Shown: in pieces, positions 951 to 10,403 of the stretch
Position numbering within the stretch: position 1 is the stretch's first letter
How the letters are laid out: the number at the start of each line of letters is the position of its first letter
Assembly: GCA_028110365.1 (NCBI GenBank)
Contig: JAOGVT010000002.1
Coordinates: 19,180 to 83,179, forward strand
DNA length: 64,000 bases
Direction: 5' to 3'
From: Flavobacteriales bacterium
GTDB taxonomy: Bacteria; Bacteroidota; Bacteroidia; Flavobacteriales; UBA7430
Notes under the pieces: generated by a model
The model's database searches: none
Told to the model about the DNA's origin: nothing
What the model saw: the letters and a program-made list of their open reading frames with translations, nothing else
Made by a program: the position numbers and the translations under genes

Positions 951-3900
951 TTACTGAACTCTTTTTTCTACGGTTCCATCGTTATAAACATGAAAAAGAA
1001 CTTTACCCTTACACGATTCACCATCAATTACTACCTGACCAAGTACATTGATCACTTTAACCAAAACTCTTGCGCCAGAAATTAATGGAGCGCTTCCAGC
1101 ATTTGTTACAATACTTGAGGCTACATTAATTTGATTGGTTGCGTAAAATGAAGATCCTTGCATCCAATCAGTTACTTCAACTATACTTTCTTGGTGGTTA
1201 GATACTATTTTAAATGAACTTACTTCGGTTACATCTAGCCCATCTTTTTTGGCTGTTAATGCATCGTCTCCCCAAACCGTTAATACGGTTACAGGACTTG
1301 TGTATTTTACAGACCCTACCCTAGTACCAAAAGAGTCGTAAGCAGTTATTTCTGCACCTTCTTTAGGGAGTGTATCCCAGCAAGCATCAGGCATTACAAT
1401 TACCATATTGTTATCTGTAATTGAGGTTTTTTTGAAGTAAGATGAGCTGTTTTTGGTAATGTCTACAGAAGATATTCGGTACGAGTCTTCGTTAGAAAGG
1501 TAATTTAAAACAGCATCATTATTGATTTTTAATTGATACCCTTGTCCCGGAACGAAATCTCCGATGCCATTAAAGTTAAACTCTGGTAAGTAGGTATTAC
1601 CGGCGTAATCTTTTGCAATTATTAAATTACCAGAAGCACTTATGTCTGCTAGAACGGCAGAAGCGTCTGCAGGTTCAAGCCTGAGGTATCCAATCAGATT
1701 CCAACCAGCATCTAGGGCAATTGGATTTAATTCAGGAGTCACATAAACGCCTTCTAAAGTAATATTAAAGGCGTTGTACGTCTTGATATAATAACCTTGC
1801 TCTGACTGTAAATCTCCAATATTATTAAAATTAAATTCTGGCAGATAAGTATCACCTGTATTATTTTTTACAATAATTACATCGGCACTAAATGGATTAA
1901 AAATATCCATGAGATCGGTTGGATTGGATTGGATATAACTTGAAAATAGAGACCAACCAGAAGGCAATTCAATTAATTGATTGGTTATTTGCTGAGGGTA
2001 CTCACAAGAGTTGTCATCTTGAGTAGCGGTAGGATTGAAGTTTAGAGCAGTTGTGTCTGTACAACCCAAAATTTCTACGATTGTAAAATCTATACAAACT
2101 TCTAATGTGGCTTGCAAACCAGAACTTAAAGTACCAGAAATGATTTCATTATTTTGTGCATCACTTATAGTGACAACTGCACCATTCCAACCATCGCCAT
2201 ACGAATCAATCATTGTAAATGTATGACAGCCAGAAGCCAAACATATTTGAGAGAAACCAACGGTTCCAGAATATTCATTAACCGACCAAGTGACTTCACT
2301 TGGGAATTCTCCCTGTGAAAGTTGAACAAACACAATATTAGATGAAGAACAATTTATAGCCTCTTGACATGTTCCGTTGTCTGAAACCGCGTCTGGATTA
2401 AAGTTAATAGCTAAAGAATCGGTACATCCAGACACTGGATAATTACAGCTATTATTTGATGCATTTGCATTGCTATCGTAATTGAGTGCTAAAGAGTCGG
2501 TGCAGCCGAATATAGGACCACATTCTCCCGAGTAATTAAGCGAATAAAAGCCGGTCTGATTTCCATCGCCAGAAATAACTGTGTTTTGATTTGCATCTAT
2601 AAGATCCCATGTGATTTCGTTAGCCCATTGGCCTCCAACTGTAAACACATTACAACCGTCGTTTAAACAAAAAGAAGCACTCGCTTGCGAAAGAGAACCT
2701 AAAAATAAATACGACAATACATCACCATTACTTTGAGAGATACTGAGCTCATTTGTATGTTCGCCGTAAGGCCAAGAATCAGTCATCATAAGAACATAAG
2801 GGGTCCCAAACTCACATTCAATTGGAACGATGCAAGAGCCATCATTTGCATTTGCATTTGCCTCATAATTAAAGGCCAATGGATTCGTACAGCCAGCGAT
2901 ACAAGAATCTAAAGTATTTAAAGCAAAATTATAAATGCCCGCATTATTCTCATTTATAGATTCATAAAACAAAACTTCATGAGCTGTATTGGTTATCTGT
3001 ACATCAACATCAAACCAGTTATCGGTTTGAATTCCATTTTCATCAAATGTATTGATGTTAAAAGCATGACAGCCGTCTTGTAAACAAACCGGAGAGGCTC
3101 CGGCCTCTCCGTAAAACCCACTCATAGACCAGGCTACATCGTCAATATAATCTCCTGTAATTTCGACTTGCAAGCGAGTCAATCCTTCACATTCTACTTT
3201 ACTACAAGAACCGTCGTCAGTATTCGCTTCTGGAGAAAAATTAAGCACAAGAGAGTCGGTACAACCTAAAATAGGGTAAATGCAACTTCCGTCTTCAGCT
3301 GTAGCAAGAATAATGTAATTAAGAGCTAATGAATCGGTACATCCAGAAGTAAAAGAGCAAGAGTCTTGATTTAATGAAAAAGTCAAAGAACCTACATTTG
3401 TATTCTCCAAAGTACCTAAGCCGAGTAACTGACCACCACTGGCAAGGATTGTAACTTCTGCCCCGCCCCAACCAAGTTGAGAAGAATCAAGCCAAGAAGG
3501 AGCTTGAGATGTATCGCTATACATATTGTAAATATAGCATCCATCGGCCAAACAAAATTGACCTTGTTGAAGATCAAATGGGTAAGAATCTCCTTCAATT
3601 CCATTCATTTCCCATGAAATTAGGTAATTGTAATCTCCACCAGTAAATTGCATAAATGCAGTGGTAGAGTCTCCACAATCTAGTATTGGCAAGTGGCAAA
3701 AGCCGTCGTCTTGATTGGCTAATACATTGTAATTAAATGCAATAGGATTTGTACAACCGTACACAAAATCGCAATCAGAAGCAACATCAACTTCAATTGT
3801 TCCATTAAAGCCATCGTCTAAGGTAGCGTAGAGCAATTGTTCGCCATCCACAGTCGTTATAGTTGCAGTTACGTCTCCTAACCAACCAGGTCCGGTAAAA

Positions 3901-5513
3901 GTGGACATCGTAAAGGTGTGACAGCCTGGCTGAACACAAATTAACTTTTCTTCTCCTGCATTTCCTTCAAACCCTTCAAACTCCCATGAAATAGACTGTG
4001 TAAGATATTCCGTGTAAGCCGCATTTACGTTTACTGATAACAGCGTGGCTCCAATACAATCGGTGTCATAAAAACAAGACCCGTCGCTAAGAACAGCTAA
4101 ACTATCAAAATTATATGCAGAAACATCTGTACAACCCTGAATTGGATAAATACAAGAGGCGTCGTAAGAGTTTACTAGCGCATCGTAATTAAGAGCCAAT
4201 GTATCGTAGCAGCCATAAATTGGAGCACATTCGGAATTAACATTAATAAGTAAGCTACCACCTTGGCCTTGATCAAGATACATTTGAGCTAAAATTGAAT
4301 CTTCTTGACTTATCGTGTAATTGTAACCCAGCCAAGGACCAGCTCCGTCTTTAATGATATAAAAAGTGTGACATCCCTCTTCTAAACAAACGTCATAGGA
4401 ACCTCTAATCCCTTCGTAATCTCCTAATTGCCATTGCGCAGGGGAAGCAGAAACAACATCTTCTACTTCTACGTGAATCTTTTCACCAGACAAACATTCA
4501 CCGTAACAATCGAATCCAAATAAAGGGGCAGGTTCGCAAGCACCACATTCATTCGTAGTGTAACAAAATCCATGATCAAATAATGCTTCAGCGTCAAAAT
4601 TACATGCTGTTTCGTCCATACATCCATAGTCAGATGTTACTTCTGCATTGTGAAAAATCCATTCTAAATAAAAAGATACCGTAGTATATCCCATCGGATA
4701 CTGAGGCATACCAGGGGTGTATCCGCCAGAGGTAACACCAACCAAAAGCCAATCTGTACTGTCGGCATTAGGCACGACTAATGGCCCTCCTGAATCTCCA
4801 GAAGCTGCAGATAAACCCCCATTTTCTAAATCTCCCGCATAAATAGTGGTACCATCGTATAACTCAAGCTCTAAGCCCAAAAGACAACCGTATTCTCCAG
4901 CAAACCCATTTGGATCTGTTGCAGCTCCACAAGCTACTTCATTAGAAACGATTGGCACTTCAATCATCTGTAATTGAGTTGCTTCTATGGTATCATTTAA
5001 ATAAGCAGAAGTCGAAACTCCCCAACCAGTGGATGTAGCTAGTACTCCAGGATCTTGAAGTCCGTTTAAAACATCTGAAGCTGAGATTAGACTAATAGGA
5101 GCTATATTTTCAGAAAAGTTAAACGATCCTTCAATTTGAATTAAAGCAATGTCGTTGTGTAGCCACTGATCGTCGTAATCTGGATGCGAAATAATTTGAA
5201 CCACATCATAAGATTCACCTGAATAAGACCAATTATCTGAGGATCCAGCATTTATGGTATAGGTACTAGCATCACCTGCTCCATCAACACAATGTGCGGC
5301 AGTTAAAACCCATGAATCTCCAATGATTGAACCGCCACACATGCTCCCAAAATCTGGCCCCTCGTAGGCAACAGCTACTTGCCATGGGTAGGAACTTATC
5401 TCTACATCTTCCCCACCCACAATTCTACTTTGTGCAACAGAATAAAAAGTTGATAGAAAAATAAAATAGCTAAATGATTGAATTACTAAATTAATCGGGA
5501 GGAGATTTTTCAT
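951..5513 (-). CDS. Giant secreted S1A (trypsin-fold) serine protease, paralogue B, with a Cys-rich module array and a T9SS-CTD-like C-terminus
   Basis: 1520-aa ORF with a signal peptide (...FYSVAQSR). The S1A motifs are IVGG (aa 31), WVLTAAHC (His74), HNDIAL (Asp121) and GDSGGP (Ser241, nt 4791-4793). It has 10 copies of the motif GC[TY][DN]xxAxN[YF]...D[GN]SC. The tail is conserved with the upstream paralogue and ends ...VLVKVINVLGQVV...VLFHVYNDGTVEKRVQ. Confidence 0.9.
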   Translation of the reverse strand: MKNLLPINLVIQSFSYFIFLSTFYSVAQSRIVGGEDVEISSYPWQVAVAYEGPDFGSMCGGSIIGDSWVLTAAHCVDGAGDASTYTINAGSSDNWSYSGESYDVVQIISHPDYDDQWLHNDIALIQIEGSFNFSENIAPISLISASDVLNGLQDPGVLATSTGWGVSTSAYLNDTIEATQLQMIEVPIVSNEVACGAATDPNGFAGEYGCLLGLELELYDGTTIYAGDLENGGLSAASGDSGGPLVVPNADSTDWLLVGVTSGGYTPGMPQYPMGYTTVSFYLEWIFHNAEVTSDYGCMDETACNFDAEALFDHGFCYTTNECGACEPAPLFGFDCYGECLSGEKIHVEVEDVVSASPAQWQLGDYEGIRGSYDVCLEEGCHTFYIIKDGAGPWLGYNYTISQEDSILAQMYLDQGQGGSLLINVNSECAPIYGCYDTLALNYDALVNSYDASCIYPIQGCTDVSAYNFDSLAVLSDGSCFYDTDCIGATLLSVNVNAAYTEYLTQSISWEFEGFEGNAGEEKLICVQPGCHTFTMSTFTGPGWLGDVTATITTVDGEQLLYATLDDGFNGTIEVDVASDCDFVYGCTNPIAFNYNVLANQDDGFCHLPILDCGDSTTAFMQFTGGDYNYLISWEMNGIEGDSYPFDLQQGQFCLADGCYIYNMYSDTSQAPSWLDSSQLGWGGAEVTILASGGQLLGLGTLENTNVGSLTFSLNQDSCSFTSGCTDSLALNYIILATAEDGSCIYPILGCTDSLVLNFSPEANTDDGSCSKVECEGLTRLQVEITGDYIDDVAWSMSGFYGEAGASPVCLQDGCHAFNINTFDENGIQTDNWFDVDVQITNTAHEVLFYESINENNAGIYNFALNTLDSCIAGCTNPLAFNYEANANANDGSCIVPIECEFGTPYVLMMTDSWPYGEHTNELSISQSNGDVLSYLFLGSLSQASASFCLNDGCNVFTVGGQWANEITWDLIDANQNTVISGDGNQTGFYSLNYSGECGPIFGCTDSLALNYDSNANASNNSCNYPVSGCTDSLAINFNPDAVSDNGTCQEAINCSSSNIVFVQLSQGEFPSEVTWSVNEYSGTVGFSQICLASGCHTFTMIDSYGDGWNGAVVTISDAQNNEIISGTLSSGLQATLEVCIDFTIVEILGCTDTTALNFNPTATQDDNSCEYPQQITNQLIELPSGWSLFSSYIQSNPTDLMDIFNPFSADVIIVKNNTGDTYLPEFNFNNIGDLQSEQGYYIKTYNAFNITLEGVYVTPELNPIALDAGWNLIGYLRLEPADASAVLADISASGNLIIAKDYAGNTYLPEFNFNGIGDFVPGQGYQLKINNDAVLNYLSNEDSYRISSVDITKNSSSYFKKTSITDNNMVIVMPDACWDTLPKEGAEITAYDSFGTRVGSVKYTSPVTVLTVWGDDALTAKKDGLDVTEVSSFKIVSNHQESIVEVTDWMQGSSFYATNQINVASSIVTNAGSAPLISGARVLVKVINVLGQVVIDGESCKGKVLFHVYNDGTVEKRVQ
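1995..4628 (-). repeat. In-frame module array of protease B: 10 two-Cys ~24-aa motifs alternating with degenerate W-rich ~45-aa units
   Basis: I counted the motifs in the translation, from YGCMDETACNFDAEALFDHGFC to LGCTDTTALNFNPTATQDDNSCEYP. Only the last intervening unit keeps the canonical DSYGDGWNG. Confidence 0.7.
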
Positions 5514-5615: not shown

Positions 5616-8600
5616 TTATTTAACCATTTTTTCTACGGTTCCGTCGTTGTAAACATTAAAGAGAACTTCTCCAGTAAAAGAGTCATCAACAACTACTTCC
5701 TGACCAAGTACATTGATTACTTTAACCAAAACTCTTCCGCTTGAAATTAAAGCAACGCTTGAGGTATTTGTTACAATACTTGAAGCTACATTAATTTCAT
5801 TGGTTGTATAAGTTGAAGAACCTTCAACCCATTTGGTAACTTCAAATGTATTTGTTTGATTGTTAGACCATAGTTTAAATGAACTTACTTCAGTTGCATT
5901 TAGTCCATCTTTAGAGCTTGTTAAAGCATCGTCTCCCCAAACTGTTAATACGGTTACAGGACTGGTGTATTTAGCAGAACCTACAAGGGTACCATAAGCA
6001 TCGAAAGCAGCTATTTCAGCGCCATCTTTAGGAAGTACATCCCAACTTGCGTCGTCAATTACAACAGTCATATTGTTATCCGTACGCAGGGCTCTTTCAA
6101 AGTGAGATGAATAATTATTAGTTACACCTATTGAAGAAACTCGGTAAGACTCTTCGTTAGAAAGATAATTTAAAACATCATCGTTAGTTACTTTTAATTG
6201 ATATCCTTGCCCAGAAACAAAGTCTCCAATTCCGTTAAAGTTAAACTCAGGTAAATAAGCGTTACCCGCAAAGTCTTTTGCAATTACTAAATTACCCGAA
6301 GAATTGATGTCAGAGAGAACAGCAGAAGCATCTGCAGGCTCAAGTCTAATGTATCCAATCATATTCCAACCAGCAGTTAAGATTGTAGGGTTTTCCTCTG
6401 GAGCAAGATATTCCCCTTCTGCTGTAATGGTAATTTCATTACGCAATTTGATTTGGTATCCCTGACCTAATTCAACATCTCCAATTCCATTAAAACCATA
6501 TTCGGGAAGGTAAGCAGCGCCAGCATTGTTTTTACAAATTATAATCTGGTCAAAAATAGAGCTTAATAAAGTTACCAAGTCCATACTTTCAAAAGTCAAA
6601 TAGGTAGAGAATATGGACCATCCAAATGGCATATCCATAGTTTGATCGGAAACAGAAGAAATCGAAGTTAAAGTGGAAAGTGCAGAGATCCCGTTGGTAA
6701 TATAGTTCCCTTGGTTAGACATCATCGCCTCATATTCTGCATTGGCCATATAAGCTAATCCTTCTGATGTATCCCAAACCATCCAAACAAATGCTTCGTT
6801 TGATGAAAAGCCATCTATTTCATCTGTAGTTGTATCATCACCTTGAGCGGCAATAAGATTTGTGGAACCAGTCCAAGTTGCCATACCACCACACTGTAAA
6901 TCTCCATTTTCATCAGAATAGAACACACCAAGTACATCTCCGATCTCAATTTCTACATCCCCTAAATCAATCTGAGCAGCACCATCAATAACTAATGTGT
7001 GGTTAGATCCAGTTACCATTACTTCCCAAGGAATATCAACTCCAGGATTATCGCCATCACATGATGTTGTAAAATCAAATGTAGCTTCTTGTCCTTGTTC
7101 CATTCCTCCTGAGGCTAGTTCACATGAAAGGTCATCAGATAAAATTGAGAATGTTCCTCCATTCCATCCGTCACCATAGGAATCCGATAAAATAATTGAA
7201 TAAGAAGTATTTGATTCTAAACAAAGTTCAACGTCAACAACAGAATTGTCAGAGTACTGACCATCTGTGTACAACATCAAGCCACTTTCATCGGTAACTG
7301 ACCATGAGTGCTCGTCACCAAAAGAAGCATTGTTTACGACAAGTAAAGCAGGGTATCCCTCACAATTCACAGGGTACTCACAAGAACCATCATCTTGTGT
7401 AGCTGCTAAATTGTAATTCAAGGCTGAAATATCTGTACATCCAAGTATTGGATCAACAATAATTTCACATTCACCAGCGTATACTGATTCAACTCCAGCA
7501 CAACTTGCATGGCAAGAACTTGAGTAAGTTATCCCATCAAATCCACAAACAGGATCGTAAATTTCAGGGCATACACAGCCGTATTCACATGAGCCATCGT
7601 CTATAGTAGCCGTATTGTCAAAGTTTAAAGCTGAAGGGTCTGTACAGCCATAAACGTATCCACATTCGGCATTTAAAGAGAATAACATGTCCCCAGAATA
7701 CCCAGCTTGTAATGTACCCGTTAATAATTCCTCTCCTGTAGATGTCGTAATCGTTACTATTGAACCATTCCAACCGTCTCCATAAGAATCTATCATAATA
7801 AATGTATGACATCCATCCTCTAAGCAATATTGTGTTGCCCCAACTTCACCTGGGAAATCGTTTAACTGCCAGGAAACTTCTTGACTATAAAATCCAGCCG
7901 TAACATCAATTACAACAAGTGTTAATCCTTCACAATCAATAGGATATTCACATGAAGCATCATCTTGAACTGCATCTGGGTTATAATTTAAAGCAAGAGA
8001 ATCTGTACAACCAACAACAGGATAAGTACATGAATTATCGTCTGCTGTAGCTGCTGGGTTAAAGTTTAAGGCTAAAGAATCGGTACAACCGTATATCAAA
8101 CCACATTCACCTTCAAAATTTAAGGCTAGTGAAGATTCGTATGGAGCATTTCCAGACAACACAACGGCTCCGTCTTGATTAACAAGATCCCAAGAAACTT
8201 CACTTTGCCATGAACCACCATCTACAGTAATTACATAACACCCATCGTTTAAACAGAAGCTAGCAACTCCTTCGCTTTCCGAACCTAATAAGGTAGCAGA
8301 AGCGATCTCTTGTCCGTTTGAAGATGCAGTAAATGCATTTCCATTCCAACCATCACCATAAGAATCGTACATCATTAAAGTTAAAGAGTTTGCAGTGTCA
8401 CAATCTTGAGGGTAAACACAAGAACCATCGTCTCCAACAGCAAGCTCGTTGTAATTGAAGGCTAATGAATCCATACAACCTGAAACTGGATAAGTACAAG
8501 AACCATCATTTGAGGTTGCTTCGACATCAAAGTTTAAGGCTAATGTATCGGTACACCCTAAAACAGGCCCACATTGTTCATCTGTATTTAAGCCAAAGCT

Positions 8601-10403
8601 AAGCGTTCCTTCAGAAACGTAACCTTCGAGCGTTCCAGACAGTAAAACGTCTCCATAAGAATCAGTAATTGTAACTACAGCAGAATTCCATCCATCTCCG
8701 TAAGAATCATACATAGTAAAAGTTTGACAACCGTCTTCTAAACAGGCTTGAGTAGATTCAGCACTTCCAGAAAAACCACCGATACTCCATGTAATTTCTG
8801 AATCCCATGAACCACCACCTACTTGAATTGAAACAGAAGTTAAACCAGAACAGTCAATCGGATACTCACAAGAGCCATCGTCTTCTACAGCTGCAATATT
8901 ATAATTTAAAGCTAGCGTATCCATACATCCAGCAACTGGGTATAGGCAGGAGTAGTTGTCAGCCGTAGCTTCAGCATTAAAGTTCAAGGCAGTCGAATCT
9001 GTACATCCAAATACAGGGCCACAACCTTCGCCTCCAAAAGCACCTTCAAAAGGAGCACCACCAGAAATCAACACAACACCATTCACGTCAGTAATCTCCC
9101 ATGACACTTCTAGTGGCCATGAGCCAGCATCACAAGTTACATCGACACAACCTGCAGAGGAATCGTAACAAACGACTCCAGAACCAGAACTTCCTGATGC
9201 AATAGTTAATGAAACTCCATTTACAATTAAAGCAGCTCCATTCCAACCATCACCGTAAGAATCAGACATTGTTACGATAAGCGTTTCACCAGTCGTACAG
9301 TTTCCAGCACAATCGTAACCTGGAGCTGGGCCATCACCGCCACACTCACCACATTCATCAAATGCAGCACAAGTACCATCATCAAAAATCATTGATGAAT
9401 CAAAATTACACGCATTTTCATCAGTACAACCACTACACGAACTATTGTCTCCTCCACACTCACCACAATCGTCAAGTTCAGCACATGCACCATTATCGTA
9501 AATCGCTTCCGAATCGTAATTACAAGCAGTAATATCCATACATCCGTATTCACTATTCACATCAGCATTGTCATTAATCCAATCCAAAACATGAGAAACT
9601 TTAGACCATACACCAGGGTAAAGTACGTCTGCACAACCATAACCCCAACTAGTAGCACCAATTAGTAACCATCTAGAATTATCAGAACTTCGAACTACAA
9701 GAGGACCACCAGAATCACCCTGACAAGCATCTTCTCCACCATTTATAAGGTCACCCGCACATATCATTGAGGCATCAAGAGAAGTGCAAGGGTATTGTCC
9801 TGAATTACCATTCTCGTCATTTGCAGAACCACAAGCAACATCATTCTCTACAATAGGAGCTTCTACCATCTGTAAAACAGAAGCTAAACCACCACCAGAA
9901 GAGGTTGTACCCCAGCCAGTAATAACGGACATAACTCCACCGTCTTGAGCACCGGCAGCAATTTCATTTTCATCTATTAGATCTATTTTCTGAATAAATG
10001 CACTATACTCAAACTCACCATTGATTTCTACCAAAGCAAAGTCGTATGAATTTCCAGAATAATCTGGATGTACTATAATTTGATTTACAGAATAAGACTC
10101 TCCACCTGATGCAAATGATGCTGTTGCACCACAACGAATATACAAACCACTAGGGCTGTCTCCGTTTACACAGTGAGCTGCGGTTAAAACCCAAGAATCC
10201 CCAATAATAGAACCTCCACAAAACCCGCTTCCATTAGGACTAGAAGTTAAGGCTACTTGCCATGGATAATCTTTGATTTCAACATCTACACCTCCCACAA
10301 CTTTTTGCTGAGCAGAGACATTAAAAGATAAAATAAGAGTGAGCACAAAAGTTAAATTCCGGATGATTTGGAAACAATTAATTGGGGGAGTAAATATTGT
10401 CAT
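5616..10403 (-). CDS. Giant secreted S1A (trypsin-type) serine protease, paralogue A, with a Cys-rich module array, an embedded Kazal-type domain and a T9SS-CTD-like C-terminus
   Basis: 1595-aa ORF with a signal peptide (...SFNVSAQQK). The S1A motifs are VVGG (aa 35), WVLTAAHC (His77), DFALVEI (Asp121) and DACQGDSGGP (Ser231, nt 9711-9713; Asp at the position-189 equivalent). It has 10 two-Cys motifs and 5 canonical DSYGDGWN[GS] units. A Kazal-like segment spans aa 943-979. The C-terminus reads ...VLVKVINVLGQEVVV...VLFNVYNDGTVEKMVK. Confidence 0.9.
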   Translation of the reverse strand: MTIFTPPINCFQIIRNLTFVLTLILSFNVSAQQKVVGGVDVEIKDYPWQVALTSSPNGSGFCGGSIIGDSWVLTAAHCVNGDSPSGLYIRCGATASFASGGESYSVNQIIVHPDYSGNSYDFALVEINGEFEYSAFIQKIDLIDENEIAAGAQDGGVMSVITGWGTTSSGGGLASVLQMVEAPIVENDVACGSANDENGNSGQYPCTSLDASMICAGDLINGGEDACQGDSGGPLVVRSSDNSRWLLIGATSWGYGCADVLYPGVWSKVSHVLDWINDNADVNSEYGCMDITACNYDSEAIYDNGACAELDDCGECGGDNSSCSGCTDENACNFDSSMIFDDGTCAAFDECGECGGDGPAPGYDCAGNCTTGETLIVTMSDSYGDGWNGAALIVNGVSLTIASGSSGSGVVCYDSSAGCVDVTCDAGSWPLEVSWEITDVNGVVLISGGAPFEGAFGGEGCGPVFGCTDSTALNFNAEATADNYSCLYPVAGCMDTLALNYNIAAVEDDGSCEYPIDCSGLTSVSIQVGGGSWDSEITWSIGGFSGSAESTQACLEDGCQTFTMYDSYGDGWNSAVVTITDSYGDVLLSGTLEGYVSEGTLSFGLNTDEQCGPVLGCTDTLALNFDVEATSNDGSCTYPVSGCMDSLAFNYNELAVGDDGSCVYPQDCDTANSLTLMMYDSYGDGWNGNAFTASSNGQEIASATLLGSESEGVASFCLNDGCYVITVDGGSWQSEVSWDLVNQDGAVVLSGNAPYESSLALNFEGECGLIYGCTDSLALNFNPAATADDNSCTYPVVGCTDSLALNYNPDAVQDDASCEYPIDCEGLTLVVIDVTAGFYSQEVSWQLNDFPGEVGATQYCLEDGCHTFIMIDSYGDGWNGSIVTITTSTGEELLTGTLQAGYSGDMLFSLNAECGYVYGCTDPSALNFDNTATIDDGSCEYGCVCPEIYDPVCGFDGITYSSSCHASCAGVESVYAGECEIIVDPILGCTDISALNYNLAATQDDGSCEYPVNCEGYPALLVVNNASFGDEHSWSVTDESGLMLYTDGQYSDNSVVDVELCLESNTSYSIILSDSYGDGWNGGTFSILSDDLSCELASGGMEQGQEATFDFTTSCDGDNPGVDIPWEVMVTGSNHTLVIDGAAQIDLGDVEIEIGDVLGVFYSDENGDLQCGGMATWTGSTNLIAAQGDDTTTDEIDGFSSNEAFVWMVWDTSEGLAYMANAEYEAMMSNQGNYITNGISALSTLTSISSVSDQTMDMPFGWSIFSTYLTFESMDLVTLLSSIFDQIIICKNNAGAAYLPEYGFNGIGDVELGQGYQIKLRNEITITAEGEYLAPEENPTILTAGWNMIGYIRLEPADASAVLSDINSSGNLVIAKDFAGNAYLPEFNFNGIGDFVSGQGYQLKVTNDDVLNYLSNEESYRVSSIGVTNNYSSHFERALRTDNNMTVVIDDASWDVLPKDGAEIAAFDAYGTLVGSAKYTSPVTVLTVWGDDALTSSKDGLNATEVSSFKLWSNNQTNTFEVTKWVEGSSTYTTNEINVASSIVTNTSSVALISSGRVLVKVINVLGQEVVVDDSFTGEVLFNVYNDGTVEKMVK
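7059..9548 (-). repeat. In-frame module array of protease A: 10 two-Cys ~24-aa motifs (mostly in doublets) separating five blocks that each pair a DSYGDGWNG-type unit with an SW-x-SEVSW-type unit
   Basis: Read from the translation. Example motifs are FGCTDSTALNFNAEATADNYSCLYP and AGCMDTLALNYNIAAVEDDGSCEYP. Example units are TMYDSYGDGWNSAVVTITDSYGDVLLSGTL and TVDGGSWQSEVSWDLVNQDGAVVLSGNA. Confidence 0.75.
7467..7577 (-). other. Kazal-type (Kazal_2-like) serine protease inhibitor domain embedded in protease A
   Basis: aa 943-979 read CVCPEIYDPVCGFDGITYSSSCHASCAGVESVYAGEC. This has six Cys and the Y-x-P-V-C-G-x-D-G-x-T-Y core typical of Kazal domains. Confidence 0.75.

What the first reader, a model, noticed from the sequence alone, without database searches (positions are those of the whole stretch)
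7467..7577. Kazal-type inhibitor domain embedded inside protease A, with a predicted Glu at P1
Residues 943-979 of protease A read CVCPEIYDPVCGFDGITYSSSCHASCAGVESVYAGEC. The six Cys and the Y-x-P-V-C-G-x-D-G-x-T-Y core have Kazal spacing. Paralogue B has nothing here. The domain sits exactly between the two members of a two-Cys-motif doublet (...DDGSCEYG-[Kazal]-EIIVDPILGCTD...), so it looks like a module inserted into a linker. I aligned Cys2..Cys3 (C-P-E-I-Y-D-P-V-C) to ovomucoid third domain (C-T-L-E-Y-R-P-L-C, P1 = Leu). This places Glu at P1, which does not fit the Asp189 pocket of its own catalytic domain. A protease carrying an inhibitor with a different specificity is unusual. It could neutralise foreign Glu-specific proteases, or protect the long stalk from them.
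Basis: partly seen in the sequence, partly recalled or inferred. Interest (0 to 1): 0.7.

Follow-up and report, generated by a model that had tools for sequence, protein, structure and literature searches.

The report
Kazal inhibitor module in bacterial protease stalk
A genuine Kazal-type protease-inhibitor domain with glutamate at its specificity position is inserted in the long stalk of a secreted trypsin-like protease of a marine Flavobacteriales bacterium; it belongs to a large, annotated but, as far as my searches show, experimentally untested bacterial branch of a well-known inhibitor family.

Summary
On the minus strand, window 7577..7467 encodes residues 943-979 of a 1595-aa trypsin-like protease (ORF 5616..10403). 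The segment passes both Pfam Kazal models. It aligns without gaps, all six Cys included, to leech-derived tryptase inhibitor (LDTI), and an AlphaFold model (pLDDT 86) matches LDTI at TM 0.80-0.90. P1 is Glu947 by homology.

Homologues show a clean ~43-aa insertion between two members of a two-Cys-motif doublet. The insertion is present in a minority of relatives, at varying stalk positions, and also in a gingipain-like (C25) protease with the same stalk.

The domain is not exotic. C-x-C Kazal domains are widespread in prokaryotic genomes, including Bacteroidota, Myxococcota and Planctomycetota. Their P1 is hypervariable and often acidic.

Published P1-Glu Kazals inhibit subtilisin, and one of them does not inhibit GluC. 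A subtilisin-type target is therefore likelier than a Glu-specific one.

Two caveats apply. The near-invariant loop-bracing Asn is Ser here, and inhibition is untested.

New context: the protease has a 1022-residue run without Lys or Arg that includes the Kazal. The absence of Lys/Arg at P1 is therefore part of a protein-wide constraint, read here as autolysis avoidance.

Verdict: a new member of a known kind, of moderate interest.

The parts
5616..10403 (-). Protease A, 1595 aa. Order of parts: signal peptide, trypsin-like S1 domain, ~840-aa Cys-rich modular stalk, ~480-aa C-terminal region.
   Evidence: ORF list and translation. Pfam Trypsin E 5e-51. A 91%-identical orthologue sits in a syntenic locus.
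10311..10403 (-). Predicted signal peptide (residues 1-31, ...SFNVSA), followed by QQK|VVGG, a trypsin-type activation site.
   Evidence: Read from the sequence. VVGG aligns with the mature N-terminal IVGG of plasma kallikrein. Cleavage is inferred.
9576..10301 (-). Trypsin-fold catalytic domain (residues 35-276). It has His77 (AAHC), Asp121, Ser231 (GDSGGP), and Asp189/Gly216/Gly226 equivalents, which predict Arg/Lys specificity.
   Evidence: Pfam. PDB alignment to plasma kallikrein: ggeDacqGDSGGP against ggtDackGDSGGP. Motif positions.
6534..9599 (-). A 1022-residue run (residues 269-1290) with no Lys or Arg. It covers the whole stalk, including the Kazal.
   Evidence: 0 K/R here against 10.8% K+R in other long ORFs of the window. 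Orthologues have runs of 1022-1079 residues and the C25 stalk protein P0055 has 979.
7581..7646 (-). Upstream two-Cys motif of the doublet (residues 920-941, CTDPSALNFDNTATIDDGSCEY).
   Evidence: Motif map. Conserved in homologues.
7467..7577 (-). Kazal domain, Cys943 to Cys979, with spacing C-x-C-x7-C-x10-C-x3-C-x10-C (non-classical, LDTI/rhodniin type).
   Evidence: Pfam above gathering threshold. Gapless alignment to LDTI. AF2 model with pLDDT 86.3. Foldseek TM 0.80-0.90 to LDTI, and every top hit is a Kazal-fold domain, mostly inhibitors.
7554..7571 (-). Reactive-site loop P3-P3' = Cys945-Pro946-Glu947-Ile948-Tyr949-Asp950. The P1 Glu947 codon is GAA at 7563-7565.
   Evidence: Homology to LDTI Cys6-Pro7-Lys8-Ile9 and OMTKY3 Cys16-Thr17-Leu18-Glu19 (table in PMC3004852). 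Codons. No amino-acid change against the 91% orthologue.
7518..7520 (-). Ser962 (AGT), at the position of the near-invariant spacer Asn (OMTKY3 Asn33, CrSPI Asn18) that hydrogen-bonds the P2 and P1' carbonyls.
   Evidence: 240 of 241 other prokaryotic Kazal domains have Asn here. Among 452 domains from representative proteins, 438 have Asn and 13 Ser. Role of the Asn: PMC3004852 and PMC3082530.
7374..7466 (-). Linker EIIVDPIL plus the downstream two-Cys motif of the doublet (residues 980-1010).
   Evidence: A similar linker (VVIVDPISGC) follows the Kazal in metagenomic relative L085.
951..5513 (-). Paralogue B, 1520 aa. Trypsin-fold with Ser189 (LSAASGDSGGP), no Kazal, and the same kind of stalk and C-terminal region.
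   Evidence: Absent from the syntenic locus of the 91% orthologue.

Best explanation
Residues 943-979 are a true Kazal domain of the non-classical C-x-C (LDTI/rhodniin) type. Module shuffling inserted it into the disulfide-rich, Lys/Arg-free stalk of a secreted trypsin-like protease of a marine Flavobacteriales bacterium.

The most likely mechanism is inferred, not shown. The module would act as a canonical standard-mechanism (substrate-like, tight-binding) inhibitor head displayed on the stalk. Its reactive loop, Cys-Pro-Glu947|Ile-Tyr-Asp, cannot dock productively in the protein's own Asp189 S1 pocket. It would therefore be aimed at other serine proteases that tolerate Glu at S1. Subtilisin-type (S8) enzymes are the likeliest target and Glu-specific S1 enzymes are less likely.

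The stalk carries no Lys or Arg, which I read as protection against the protein's own trypsin-type activity. The Kazal head would add protection against foreign proteases or against co-secreted proteases of another specificity.

What is shown: domain identity, fold, the P1 assignment by homology, the insertion, the Asp189 mismatch, and the Lys/Arg-free context. What is inferred: secretion, inhibitory competence, and the target class.

My confidence is about 0.97 that it is a Kazal domain, about 0.5 that it is a working inhibitor, and about 0.3 that the target is a subtilisin-type enzyme.
For: Identity:
- Pfam Kazal_1 and Kazal_2 both score above their gathering thresholds.
- The alignment to LDTI is gapless (E 8e-9), and rhodniin, agrin, ovomucoid and CrSPI-1 also match.
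- The AF2 model has pLDDT 86.3 with a hairpin, helix and strand.
- Foldseek gives TM 0.80-0.90 to LDTI and 0.8 to infestin and rhodniin.

Insertion:
- Six full-length homologues (P0011, P0012, P0014, P0018, P0019, P0022) keep the motif doublet with no Kazal between the two members.
- The Kazal is present in P0001, P0025, P0030, L086 and L093 (all trypsin-like) and in P0055, L017, L087 and L088. P0055 and L017 are C25-type. L087 and L088 were not typed but carry no trypsin motif.

Not self-directed:
- Protease A has Asp189, Gly216 and Gly226.
- The same module occurs on a cysteine-protease stalk.
- All 14 stalk-embedded Kazals have no Lys/Arg, within a 1022-residue Lys/Arg-free run.

Inhibitor-like behaviour of the clade:
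- P1 is hypervariable while the scaffold is near-invariant. Stand-alone proteins have M23, A18, Q17, K16, E14. Multi-domain proteins have D64, A62, R48, M43, K43, E40.
- Seven of 33 large prokaryotic Kazal proteins also carry Antistasin inhibitor domains.

Loop conservation:
- The loop 945-953 has no amino-acid change against the 91% orthologue.
- The pattern P-E-[ILV]-Y-[DE] is kept in relatives that are only 50-67% identical.

Target class:
- CrSPI-1 domain 2 buries P1 Glu48 in the subtilisin S1 pocket, with Ki 2.5 nM. SPIPm2 and EPI1 are cited in the same paper (PMC3082530).
- Conkazal-M1 (P1 Glu) inhibits subtilisin A but not GluC or chymotrypsin (PMC13101452).
Against: - No activity data exist for this domain, and my literature searches found none for any prokaryotic Kazal domain.
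- The spacer Asn that rigidifies the reactive loop is Ser962 in A and in its 91% orthologue. It is Asn in 240 of 241 other prokaryotic domains and in 97% of a wider sample.
- dN/dS within the Kazal is 0.72 against 0.22 for the whole gene. This rests on only about 9 substitutions, all outside the loop.
- The module is absent from most orthologues and sits at different stalk positions, so it is dispensable for the protease.
- No S8 protease gene lies in the window.
- Many eukaryotic Kazal-like modules do not inhibit anything (agrin, follistatin, HTRA1).
- Secretion through the type IX system (T9SS) is not supported by any C-terminal sorting-domain (CTD) match.
Confidence: 0.5

Rival explanations
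1. The Kazal is a non-inhibitory structural, spacer or binding module. It would be one more small disulfide-knotted unit in a modular stalk, like the Kazal-like domains of agrin, follistatin, SPARC or HTRA1. The acidic loop would simply reflect the very acidic, Lys/Arg-free composition of the stalk.
For: - The spacer Asn is replaced by Ser962.
- dN/dS in the Kazal is 0.72 against 0.22 gene-wide.
- The module is present or absent among orthologues and its position varies.
- The stalk is built from other unassigned Cys-rich modules.
- The best single PDB sequence hit is an agrin Kazal.
- The stalk has 134 Asp/Glu and no Lys/Arg in 839 residues, so an acidic P1 may be compositional.
Against: - The reactive loop is identical in the 91% orthologue, and P2-P3' is conserved in relatives of 50-67% identity.
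- The prokaryotic clade shows the inhibitor hallmark of a hypervariable P1 on an invariant scaffold.
- The clade co-occurs with Antistasin domains.
- Sequence and fold are closest to bona fide inhibitors such as LDTI, infestin and rhodniin.
- Ser at the spacer position occurs in 3% of related domains, so it is tolerated.
Confidence: 0.33
2. One reading: the domain targets Glu-specific chymotrypsin-fold endopeptidases (V8/GluC, GluSGP type) made by other organisms.
For: - P1 is Glu.
- From my memory, not checked here: replacing P1 Leu18 by Glu in turkey ovomucoid third domain makes it a strong GluSGP inhibitor (Komiyama et al. 1991).
- Glu18 and Asp18 variants of that domain bound to the S. griseus protease SGPB have solved structures (1sge and 1sgd appear).
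Against: - The one natural P1-Glu Kazal tested against GluC did not inhibit it, but it did inhibit subtilisin A (PMC13101452).
- The characterised natural P1-Glu/Asp Kazals are subtilisin inhibitors (PMC3082530).
- Nothing in the window or in the related loci points to Glu-specific proteases.
Confidence: 0.1
3. The domain regulates the protein's own catalytic domain, or paralogue B, as an in-cis or in-trans auto-inhibitor, for example as a latency device before release.
For: - Inhibitor and protease lie in one chain.
- Paralogue B has a different S1 pocket: Ser189, and probably Met226 (my reading).
Against: - P1 Glu faces Asp189 in protease A.
- The whole stalk avoids Lys/Arg, which argues for avoiding interaction with the active site.
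- The same module sits on a C25 cysteine-protease stalk, which Kazal domains are not known to inhibit.
- Most orthologues lack the module.
- Paralogue B is absent from the genome of the 91% orthologue, which keeps the Kazal.
- Neither A nor B shows the His213-type signature of Glu-specific S1 enzymes (my reading).
Confidence: 0.05

Closest known systems
Leech-derived tryptase inhibitor (LDTI; PDB 1an1, 1ldt, 2kmo) and rhodniin domain 1: non-classical group II Kazal inhibitors
   Same: The Cys spacing is identical (C-x-C-x7-C-x10-C-x3-C-x10-C). The alignment is gapless and 45-51% identical. P2 is Pro, the PVCG-DG-TY core is present, and the C-x3-C helix motif is present. The predicted fold matches at TM 0.80-0.90.
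   Different: P1 is Glu rather than Lys (LDTI) or His (rhodniin). The spacer Asn is Ser. The domain is embedded in a 1595-aa bacterial protease instead of being a free animal inhibitor. Its activity is untested.
Natural P1-Glu Kazal inhibitors: CrSPI-1 domain 2 (PDB 3qtl), shrimp SPIPm2 domains, conkazal-M1
   Same: All have a Kazal fold with Glu at P1 and Tyr at P2'. 3qtl_D matches in sequence (E 4.5e-7) and in fold (rmsd 0.7 over 30 residues).
   Different: Those are animal proteins with measured subtilisin inhibition: Ki 2.5 nM for CrSPI-1 domain 2 and 1.1 uM for conkazal-M1. P2 is Thr in CrSPI-1 and Pro here. CrSPI-1 is assigned to non-classical group I, with different Cys placement.
Prokaryotic Kazal proteins: stand-alone 50-80-aa proteins with lipoprotein-like signal peptides in Bacteroidota, and multi-Kazal proteins of Myxococcota, Planctomycetota and Saprospiraceae
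   Same: They belong to the same C-x-C clade and share the consensus xCxCPxxYxPVCGxDGxTYxNxCxAxCAGV. NCBI already names them 'Kazal-type serine protease inhibitor family protein'. Many are T9SS cargo.
   Different: Here a single copy sits inside a protease stalk. Protease fusions are rare: 2 of the 33 large ORFs surveyed, one C25 and one M43. This copy has no Lys/Arg, and the spacer Asn is replaced by Ser.
Eukaryotic proteases that carry Kazal-like modules: HTRA1/3/4 and complement factor I (FIMAC/Kazal_CFAI)
   Same: A serine-protease domain and a Kazal-type module lie in one polypeptide (PMC7351529; Pfam PF21287 was seen).
   Different: Those modules lie N-terminal to the protease and are divergent. 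They are generally regarded as non-inhibitory (my knowledge, not tested here). Here the module is a near-canonical inhibitor-type Kazal located about 660 residues C-terminal to the catalytic domain.

Membership tests
Kazal domain (Pfam PF00050/PF07648; MEROPS I1) | Significant match to the family HMMs, above the curated thresholds | tested here: met
   In the whole protein, Kazal_1 scores 27.7 bits (gathering 21) and Kazal_2 scores 25.5 (gathering 22.8). The isolated segment scores 34.5 and 32.9.
Kazal domain (Pfam PF00050/PF07648; MEROPS I1) | Six Cys with Kazal spacing and the core Y-x-P-V-C-G-x-D-G-x-T-Y | tested here: met
   C943-x-C945-x7-C953-x10-C964-x3-C968-x10-C979, with core YDPVCGFDGITY. 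All six Cys align without gaps to LDTI.
Kazal domain (Pfam PF00050/PF07648; MEROPS I1) | Alpha+beta fold: beta-hairpin, short helix, third strand | tested here: met
   The AF2 model has pLDDT 86.3, with strands 14-16 and 35-38 and helix 25-30. Foldseek gives TM 0.80-0.90 to LDTI, and every top hit has the Kazal fold. A first model from a 5-sequence alignment failed with pLDDT 38.
Kazal domain (Pfam PF00050/PF07648; MEROPS I1) | Disulfide topology 1-5, 2-4, 3-6 | not testable with these tools
   Inferred only, from the gapless alignment to solved LDTI and the fold match. Disulfide mapping by mass spectrometry is needed.
Canonical (standard-mechanism) Kazal inhibitor | Exposed reactive loop with P3 Cys (Cys2) and P1 two residues after Cys2 | tested here: met
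   The loop is C945-P946-E947-I948-Y949-D950. The position rule is stated in PMC13101452, and the LDTI and OMTKY3 loops are tabulated in PMC3004852.
Canonical (standard-mechanism) Kazal inhibitor | Spacer Asn (OMTKY3 Asn33, CrSPI Asn18) hydrogen-bonding the P2 and P1' carbonyls to keep the loop rigid | tested here: not met
   The residue is Ser962 (AGT, 7518-7520). Asn occupies this position in 240 of 241 other prokaryotic Kazals. In a wider sample, 438 of 452 have Asn and 13 have Ser. Relatives P0025, P0030, P0055 and L086 keep Asn.
Canonical (standard-mechanism) Kazal inhibitor | Tight, reversible inhibition of a serine protease | not testable with these tools
Non-classical group II Kazal (LDTI / rhodniin / bdellin type) | Short Cys1-Cys2 spacing and a cystine-stabilised helix C-x3-C | tested here: met
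   C943-V-C945 and C964-HAS-C968. Group definition from PMC3082530. The best sequence and fold matches are LDTI.
Chymotrypsin-fold serine protease S1A, trypsin-like specificity (host protein A) | Catalytic triad plus Asp189/Gly216/Gly226 | tested here: met
   AAHC at 75, DFAL at 121, GDSGGP at 229. The alignment to plasma kallikrein keeps Asp189, the SWG of 214-216 and the PGV of 225-227.
T9SS cargo protein (host protein A) | C-terminal sorting domain (PF18962 / TIGR04183 or type B) | tested here: not met
   The last 100 aa of A and B give no hit even at E <= 10, and there is no NCBIfam hit. Neighbouring genes and many stalk homologues do carry Por_Secre_tail. Export by T9SS remains only a possibility.

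The most novel reading that the evidence does not exclude
Stalk-embedded, Lys/Arg-free Kazal heads with acidic P1 would be working inhibitors of subtilisin-type proteases, displayed on the cell surface. Together with the complete purge of Lys/Arg from a >1000-residue stalk, they would form a two-layer protease-proofing design for the extracellular Arg/Lys-specific proteases (S1 and C25) of marine Flavobacteriales. Confirmation would be, as far as my searches show, the first functional demonstration for the large prokaryotic Kazal clade. That clade has 12,683 representative proteins at E <= 1e-3.
Probability: 0.3. Interest if true: 0.6.

Novelty: new member of a known kind. Interest (0 to 1): 0.4.

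Why it matters
Kazal inhibitors are textbook animal proteins. This case shows a near-canonical copy built into a bacterial extracellular protease.

The survey made here shows that the C-x-C Kazal clade is large in Bacteroidota, Myxococcota and other prokaryotes. It is annotated, but my literature searches found no experimental work on it.

If the module inhibits subtilisin-type enzymes, it would reveal how marine particle-degrading bacteria protect their own long surface enzymes in a protease-rich environment. It would also provide compact, naturally Lys/Arg-free inhibitor scaffolds.

The Lys/Arg-free stalk is a clear sequence-level sign of selection against self-cleavage and is testable in itself.

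If the module is inert, the case is ordinary domain shuffling.

Tried and rejected
- A plus-strand reading of the coordinates gives stop codons, so the feature is on the minus strand.
- The search for homologous proteins with the 55-aa Kazal alone found nothing because of a word-index limit. A 45-column profile worked, but the best 120 listed were all proteins of 40-79 aa.
- The first AlphaFold run on a 5-sequence alignment was unusable (pLDDT 38). It was replaced by a 123-sequence alignment.
- I tested for a T9SS C-terminal sorting domain in A and B. There was no hit in Pfam or NCBIfam, so I do not claim T9SS export.
- I tested for recent foreign origin of the insert by composition. GC is 0.41 against 0.39 for the gene, and GC3 is 0.16 against 0.23. 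There is no signal.
- Five literature searches for bacterial Kazal domains returned nothing relevant. The Kantyka, Rawlings and Potempa review (PMC2952067) is not held.
- The source organism is not among the GTDB species representatives at high identity. The best Kazal matches are 62-72% identical.
- Self-inhibition and inhibition of paralogue B were considered and judged unlikely (see rivals).
- The representative-library search returned mainly multi-Kazal proteins. It was useful only for P1 and spacer statistics.
Full report
**1. Observation**

The coordinates are right but the feature is on the minus strand. The plus-strand translation has stops. The minus-strand translation of 7467-7577 is CVCPEIYDPVCGFDGITYSSSCHASCAGVESVYAGEC. 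This is residues 943-979 of the 1595-aa ORF 5616..10403(-), here called protease A.

Pfam finds a trypsin domain at residues 35-276 (E 5e-51). Both Kazal models score above their gathering thresholds in the whole protein: Kazal_1 27.7 bits against 21, and Kazal_2 25.5 against 22.8. The isolated segment scores 34.5 and 32.9 bits. The downstream paralogue B (951..5513, -) has a trypsin domain and no Kazal.

A sequence search of the PDB gives a gapless 38-residue alignment to leech-derived tryptase inhibitor (LDTI; 1an1/1ldt, E 8e-9) with all six Cys aligned. It also matches rhodniin, agrin, ovomucoid, infestin and the horseshoe-crab inhibitor CrSPI-1.

A first AlphaFold run with five sequences failed (pLDDT 38). 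A run with a 123-sequence alignment gave pLDDT 86.3 with a hairpin-helix-strand arrangement. Foldseek against the PDB returned only Kazal-fold domains at the top. LDTI matched at TM 0.80-0.90, and infestin and rhodniin at about 0.8.

**2. The P1 assignment**

In Kazal inhibitors, P1 lies two residues after Cys2 (PMC13101452). LDTI reads Cys6-Pro7-Lys8-Ile9 and turkey ovomucoid third domain (OMTKY3) reads Cys16-Thr17-Leu18-Glu19 (table in PMC3004852). By the gapless alignment, protease A has Cys945-Pro946-Glu947-Ile948-Tyr949-Asp950, with P1 Glu encoded by GAA at 7563-7565.

The C-x-C start and the C-x3-C helix motif place the domain in the non-classical group II (LDTI/rhodniin type), as defined in PMC3082530.

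**3. An inserted module**

Relatives of A are large proteins from marine Flavobacteriales metagenome-assembled genomes. A full-length alignment shows that P0011, P0012, P0014, P0018, P0019 and P0022 have the same two-Cys-motif doublet joined by only 2-6 residues. A and its 91% orthologue P0001 carry about 43 extra residues there.

Among the 120 best homologues, only P0001, P0025, P0030 and P0055 have a Kazal. P0025 and P0030 are trypsin-like. In them the Kazal follows one motif and directly precedes a DSYGDGW module, so its position differs from that in A. P0055 is a Peptidase_C25 (gingipain-like) protein with the same stalk and the same C-terminal region.

Metagenome contigs add further examples. 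L086 is trypsin-like and has the Kazal between the doublet. L093 resembles P0025. L085 has a similar following linker, VVIVDPISGC. L087, L088, L102, L117, L100, L099 and L108 also carry stalk-embedded Kazals.

The insert's GC content matches that of the gene. The module is therefore an old, shuffled stalk element. It is dispensable for the protease and is not tied to one catalytic class.

**4. The wider family**

A pattern scan of one genome per prokaryotic species found 159 stretches that encode relatives. They come from Saprospiraceae, Chitinophagales, Flavobacteriales, Myxococcota, Planctomycetota, Desulfobulbales and a few archaea.

I extracted 142 domains from these loci, and 141 have the C-x-C start. 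Of 33 large ORFs scanned with Pfam:
- 11 carry the T9SS sorting domain;
- 7 carry Antistasin inhibitor domains;
- only 2 carry a protease domain (one C25, one M43).

A profile search also found about 300 stand-alone proteins; the 120 listed are 40-79 aa and many have lipoprotein-like signal peptides. NCBI already names some of them 'Kazal-type serine protease inhibitor family protein'. An exhaustive HMMER search of 1.84 billion representative proteins found 12,683 matches at E <= 1e-3.

P1 in this clade is hypervariable on a nearly invariant scaffold:

| Sample | P1 counts |
|---|---|
| Stand-alone proteins | M23, A18, Q17, K16, E14 |
| Bystander domains in genome loci | A22, D16, E14 |
| 452 domains from representative proteins | D64, A62, R48, M43, K43, E40 |

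A variable P1 on a fixed scaffold is the classic signature of canonical inhibitors. It also shows that Glu at P1 is not rare here. The searches that used the pattern C[IV]C[PI][ED]... are biased towards acidic P1, so I relied on the subsets that did not match it.

**5. The host protein**

Protease A has the catalytic triad and Asp189, Gly216 and Gly226. Its predicted signal peptide is followed by QQK|VVGG. It is therefore a trypsin-type enzyme.

A has no Lys or Arg at all between residues 269 and 1290. Other long ORFs in the window have 10.8% Lys+Arg. Asp189 orthologues share this feature, with Lys/Arg-free runs of 1022-1079 residues. So does the C25 stalk protein P0055, with a run of 979 residues. 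All 14 stalk-embedded Kazals have no Lys/Arg, against 48% of Kazals in other large proteins and 14% of stand-alone ones.

I read this as selection against cleavage by the protein's own Arg/Lys-specific active site.

**6. Likely function**

The reactive loop is identical in the 91% orthologue. Gene-wide dN/dS is 0.22 and the trypsin domain is at 0.05. The Kazal is at 0.72, but this rests on only about 9 substitutions, all outside the loop. The pattern Pro-Glu-[Ile/Leu/Val]-Tyr-[Asp/Glu] recurs in relatives of 50-67% identity.

Experimental precedent for P1-Glu Kazals points to subtilisin:
- CrSPI-1 domain 2 buries Glu48 in the subtilisin S1 pocket, with Ki 2.5 nM. The authors cite SPIPm2 and EPI1 as further cases (PMC3082530).
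- Conkazal-M1 inhibits subtilisin A with Ki 1.1 uM but does not inhibit GluC or chymotrypsin (PMC13101452).

From memory, and not checked here, an engineered Glu18 ovomucoid third domain strongly inhibits GluSGP, so a Glu-specific target is not excluded.

My best explanation is a stalk-displayed canonical inhibitor head aimed at non-self serine proteases, most likely of the S8 type. It would complement the Lys/Arg purge in protecting the stalk.

**7. Caveats and rivals**

The Asn that braces the reactive loop is Ser962 in A and P0001. This Asn corresponds to OMTKY3 Asn33 and CrSPI Asn18, and its role is described. It is Asn in 240 of 241 other prokaryotic domains and in 438 of 452 in the wider sample, where 13 have Ser. 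The substitution may weaken inhibition.

This caveat, the module's dispensability and the existence of many non-inhibitory eukaryotic Kazal-like modules keep the structural-module rival alive at about one third. [quoted passage not shown]

Self-regulation is unlikely for four reasons:
- P1 Glu faces Asp189.
- The module also occurs on a cysteine-protease stalk.
- Most orthologues lack it.
- Paralogue B is absent from the syntenic locus of the 91% orthologue, which keeps the Kazal.

**8. Context**

The window is an ordinary Flavobacteriales chromosomal region. It encodes tyrS, pyrC, metG, ileS, polA, uvrC, lysS, a Peptidase_S46 and two Por_Secre_tail cargo proteins. No T9SS sorting domain is detectable in A or B, so the export route beyond the signal peptide is inferred. 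No S8 protease gene lies in the window.

**9. Verdict**

This is a real Kazal domain and a correctly read P1. It is a new member of a known, already annotated kind, in an uncommon architecture. Function is inferred only. Interest is moderate at 0.4. The main reasons are that my searches found no experimental work on the prokaryotic Kazal clade and that the Lys/Arg-free stalk gives a coherent, testable picture of protease-proofing.

Noticed in passing
window 6534-9599 (-), residues 269-1290 of protease A: This 1022-residue run has no Lys or Arg, against 10.8% K+R in other long ORFs of the window. Asp189 orthologues have runs of 1022-1079 and the C25 (gingipain-like) stalk protein P0055 has 979. 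It looks like selection against cleavage by the protein's own Arg/Lys-specific protease.
   Followed up: partly
window 951-5513 (-), paralogue B: B has Ser189 (LSAASGDSGGP), no Cys191/Cys220 pair, and probably Met at position 226. Its whole catalytic domain has no Lys/Arg and its stalk has only 6. B is missing from the syntenic locus of the 91% orthologue, where A is followed by a 33-aa ORF and a Peptidase_M23 gene.
   Followed up: partly
window 7518-7520 (-), Ser962: The near-invariant Kazal spacer Asn is Ser in A and in its 91% orthologue. Other stalk-embedded relatives (P0025, P0030, P0055, L086) keep Asn.
   Followed up: yes
protease A residues ~277-1115 (window ~7059-9575, -) and the equivalent part of B: The stalk is built from two repeated modules with no Pfam match. 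One is a ~20-aa two-Cys motif C[TM]D..A.N[YF]......DDGSC, often in doublets. The other is a ~100-aa module with the signature DSYGDGWNG. They are shared by many very large marine Flavobacteriales proteins with varied catalytic or binding heads, including lysyl oxidase, MAM, M43 and C25.
   Followed up: no
protease A residues 1249-1595 (window 5616-6659, -) and B residues 1174-1520: The C-terminal ~350 residues are 64% identical between A and B, against ~36% for the rest. The C-terminal tail also recurs in the C25 protein P0055. It matches no Pfam or NCBIfam model, including the T9SS sorting domains.
   Followed up: partly
L072 (Reichenbachiella faecimaris DSM 26133), and P0124-P0147 and similar: These are stand-alone Kazal proteins of 50-80 aa with lipoprotein-like signal peptides in Bacteroidota. 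Many have an extra Cys (PVCGCDG), which suggests a fourth disulfide. One is in a cultured strain, which would be a convenient experimental entry point.
   Followed up: no
L005 (Planctomycetota), L002 (Myxococcota), P0241 (23 matched stretches): These carry tandem arrays of 10-23 Kazal domains with a ~39-aa period, many with the same CPEIYDPVCG loop as protease A. Seven of the 33 large prokaryotic Kazal ORFs also carry Antistasin domains and six carry DUF6970.
   Followed up: no
window 1-~840 (-): A gene that runs off the window end starts with a signal-like segment and one two-Cys motif (GCLDQNAINYNPLATV...). The sequence that follows reminded me of CotH-type proteins. I did not test this (output).
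   Followed up: no
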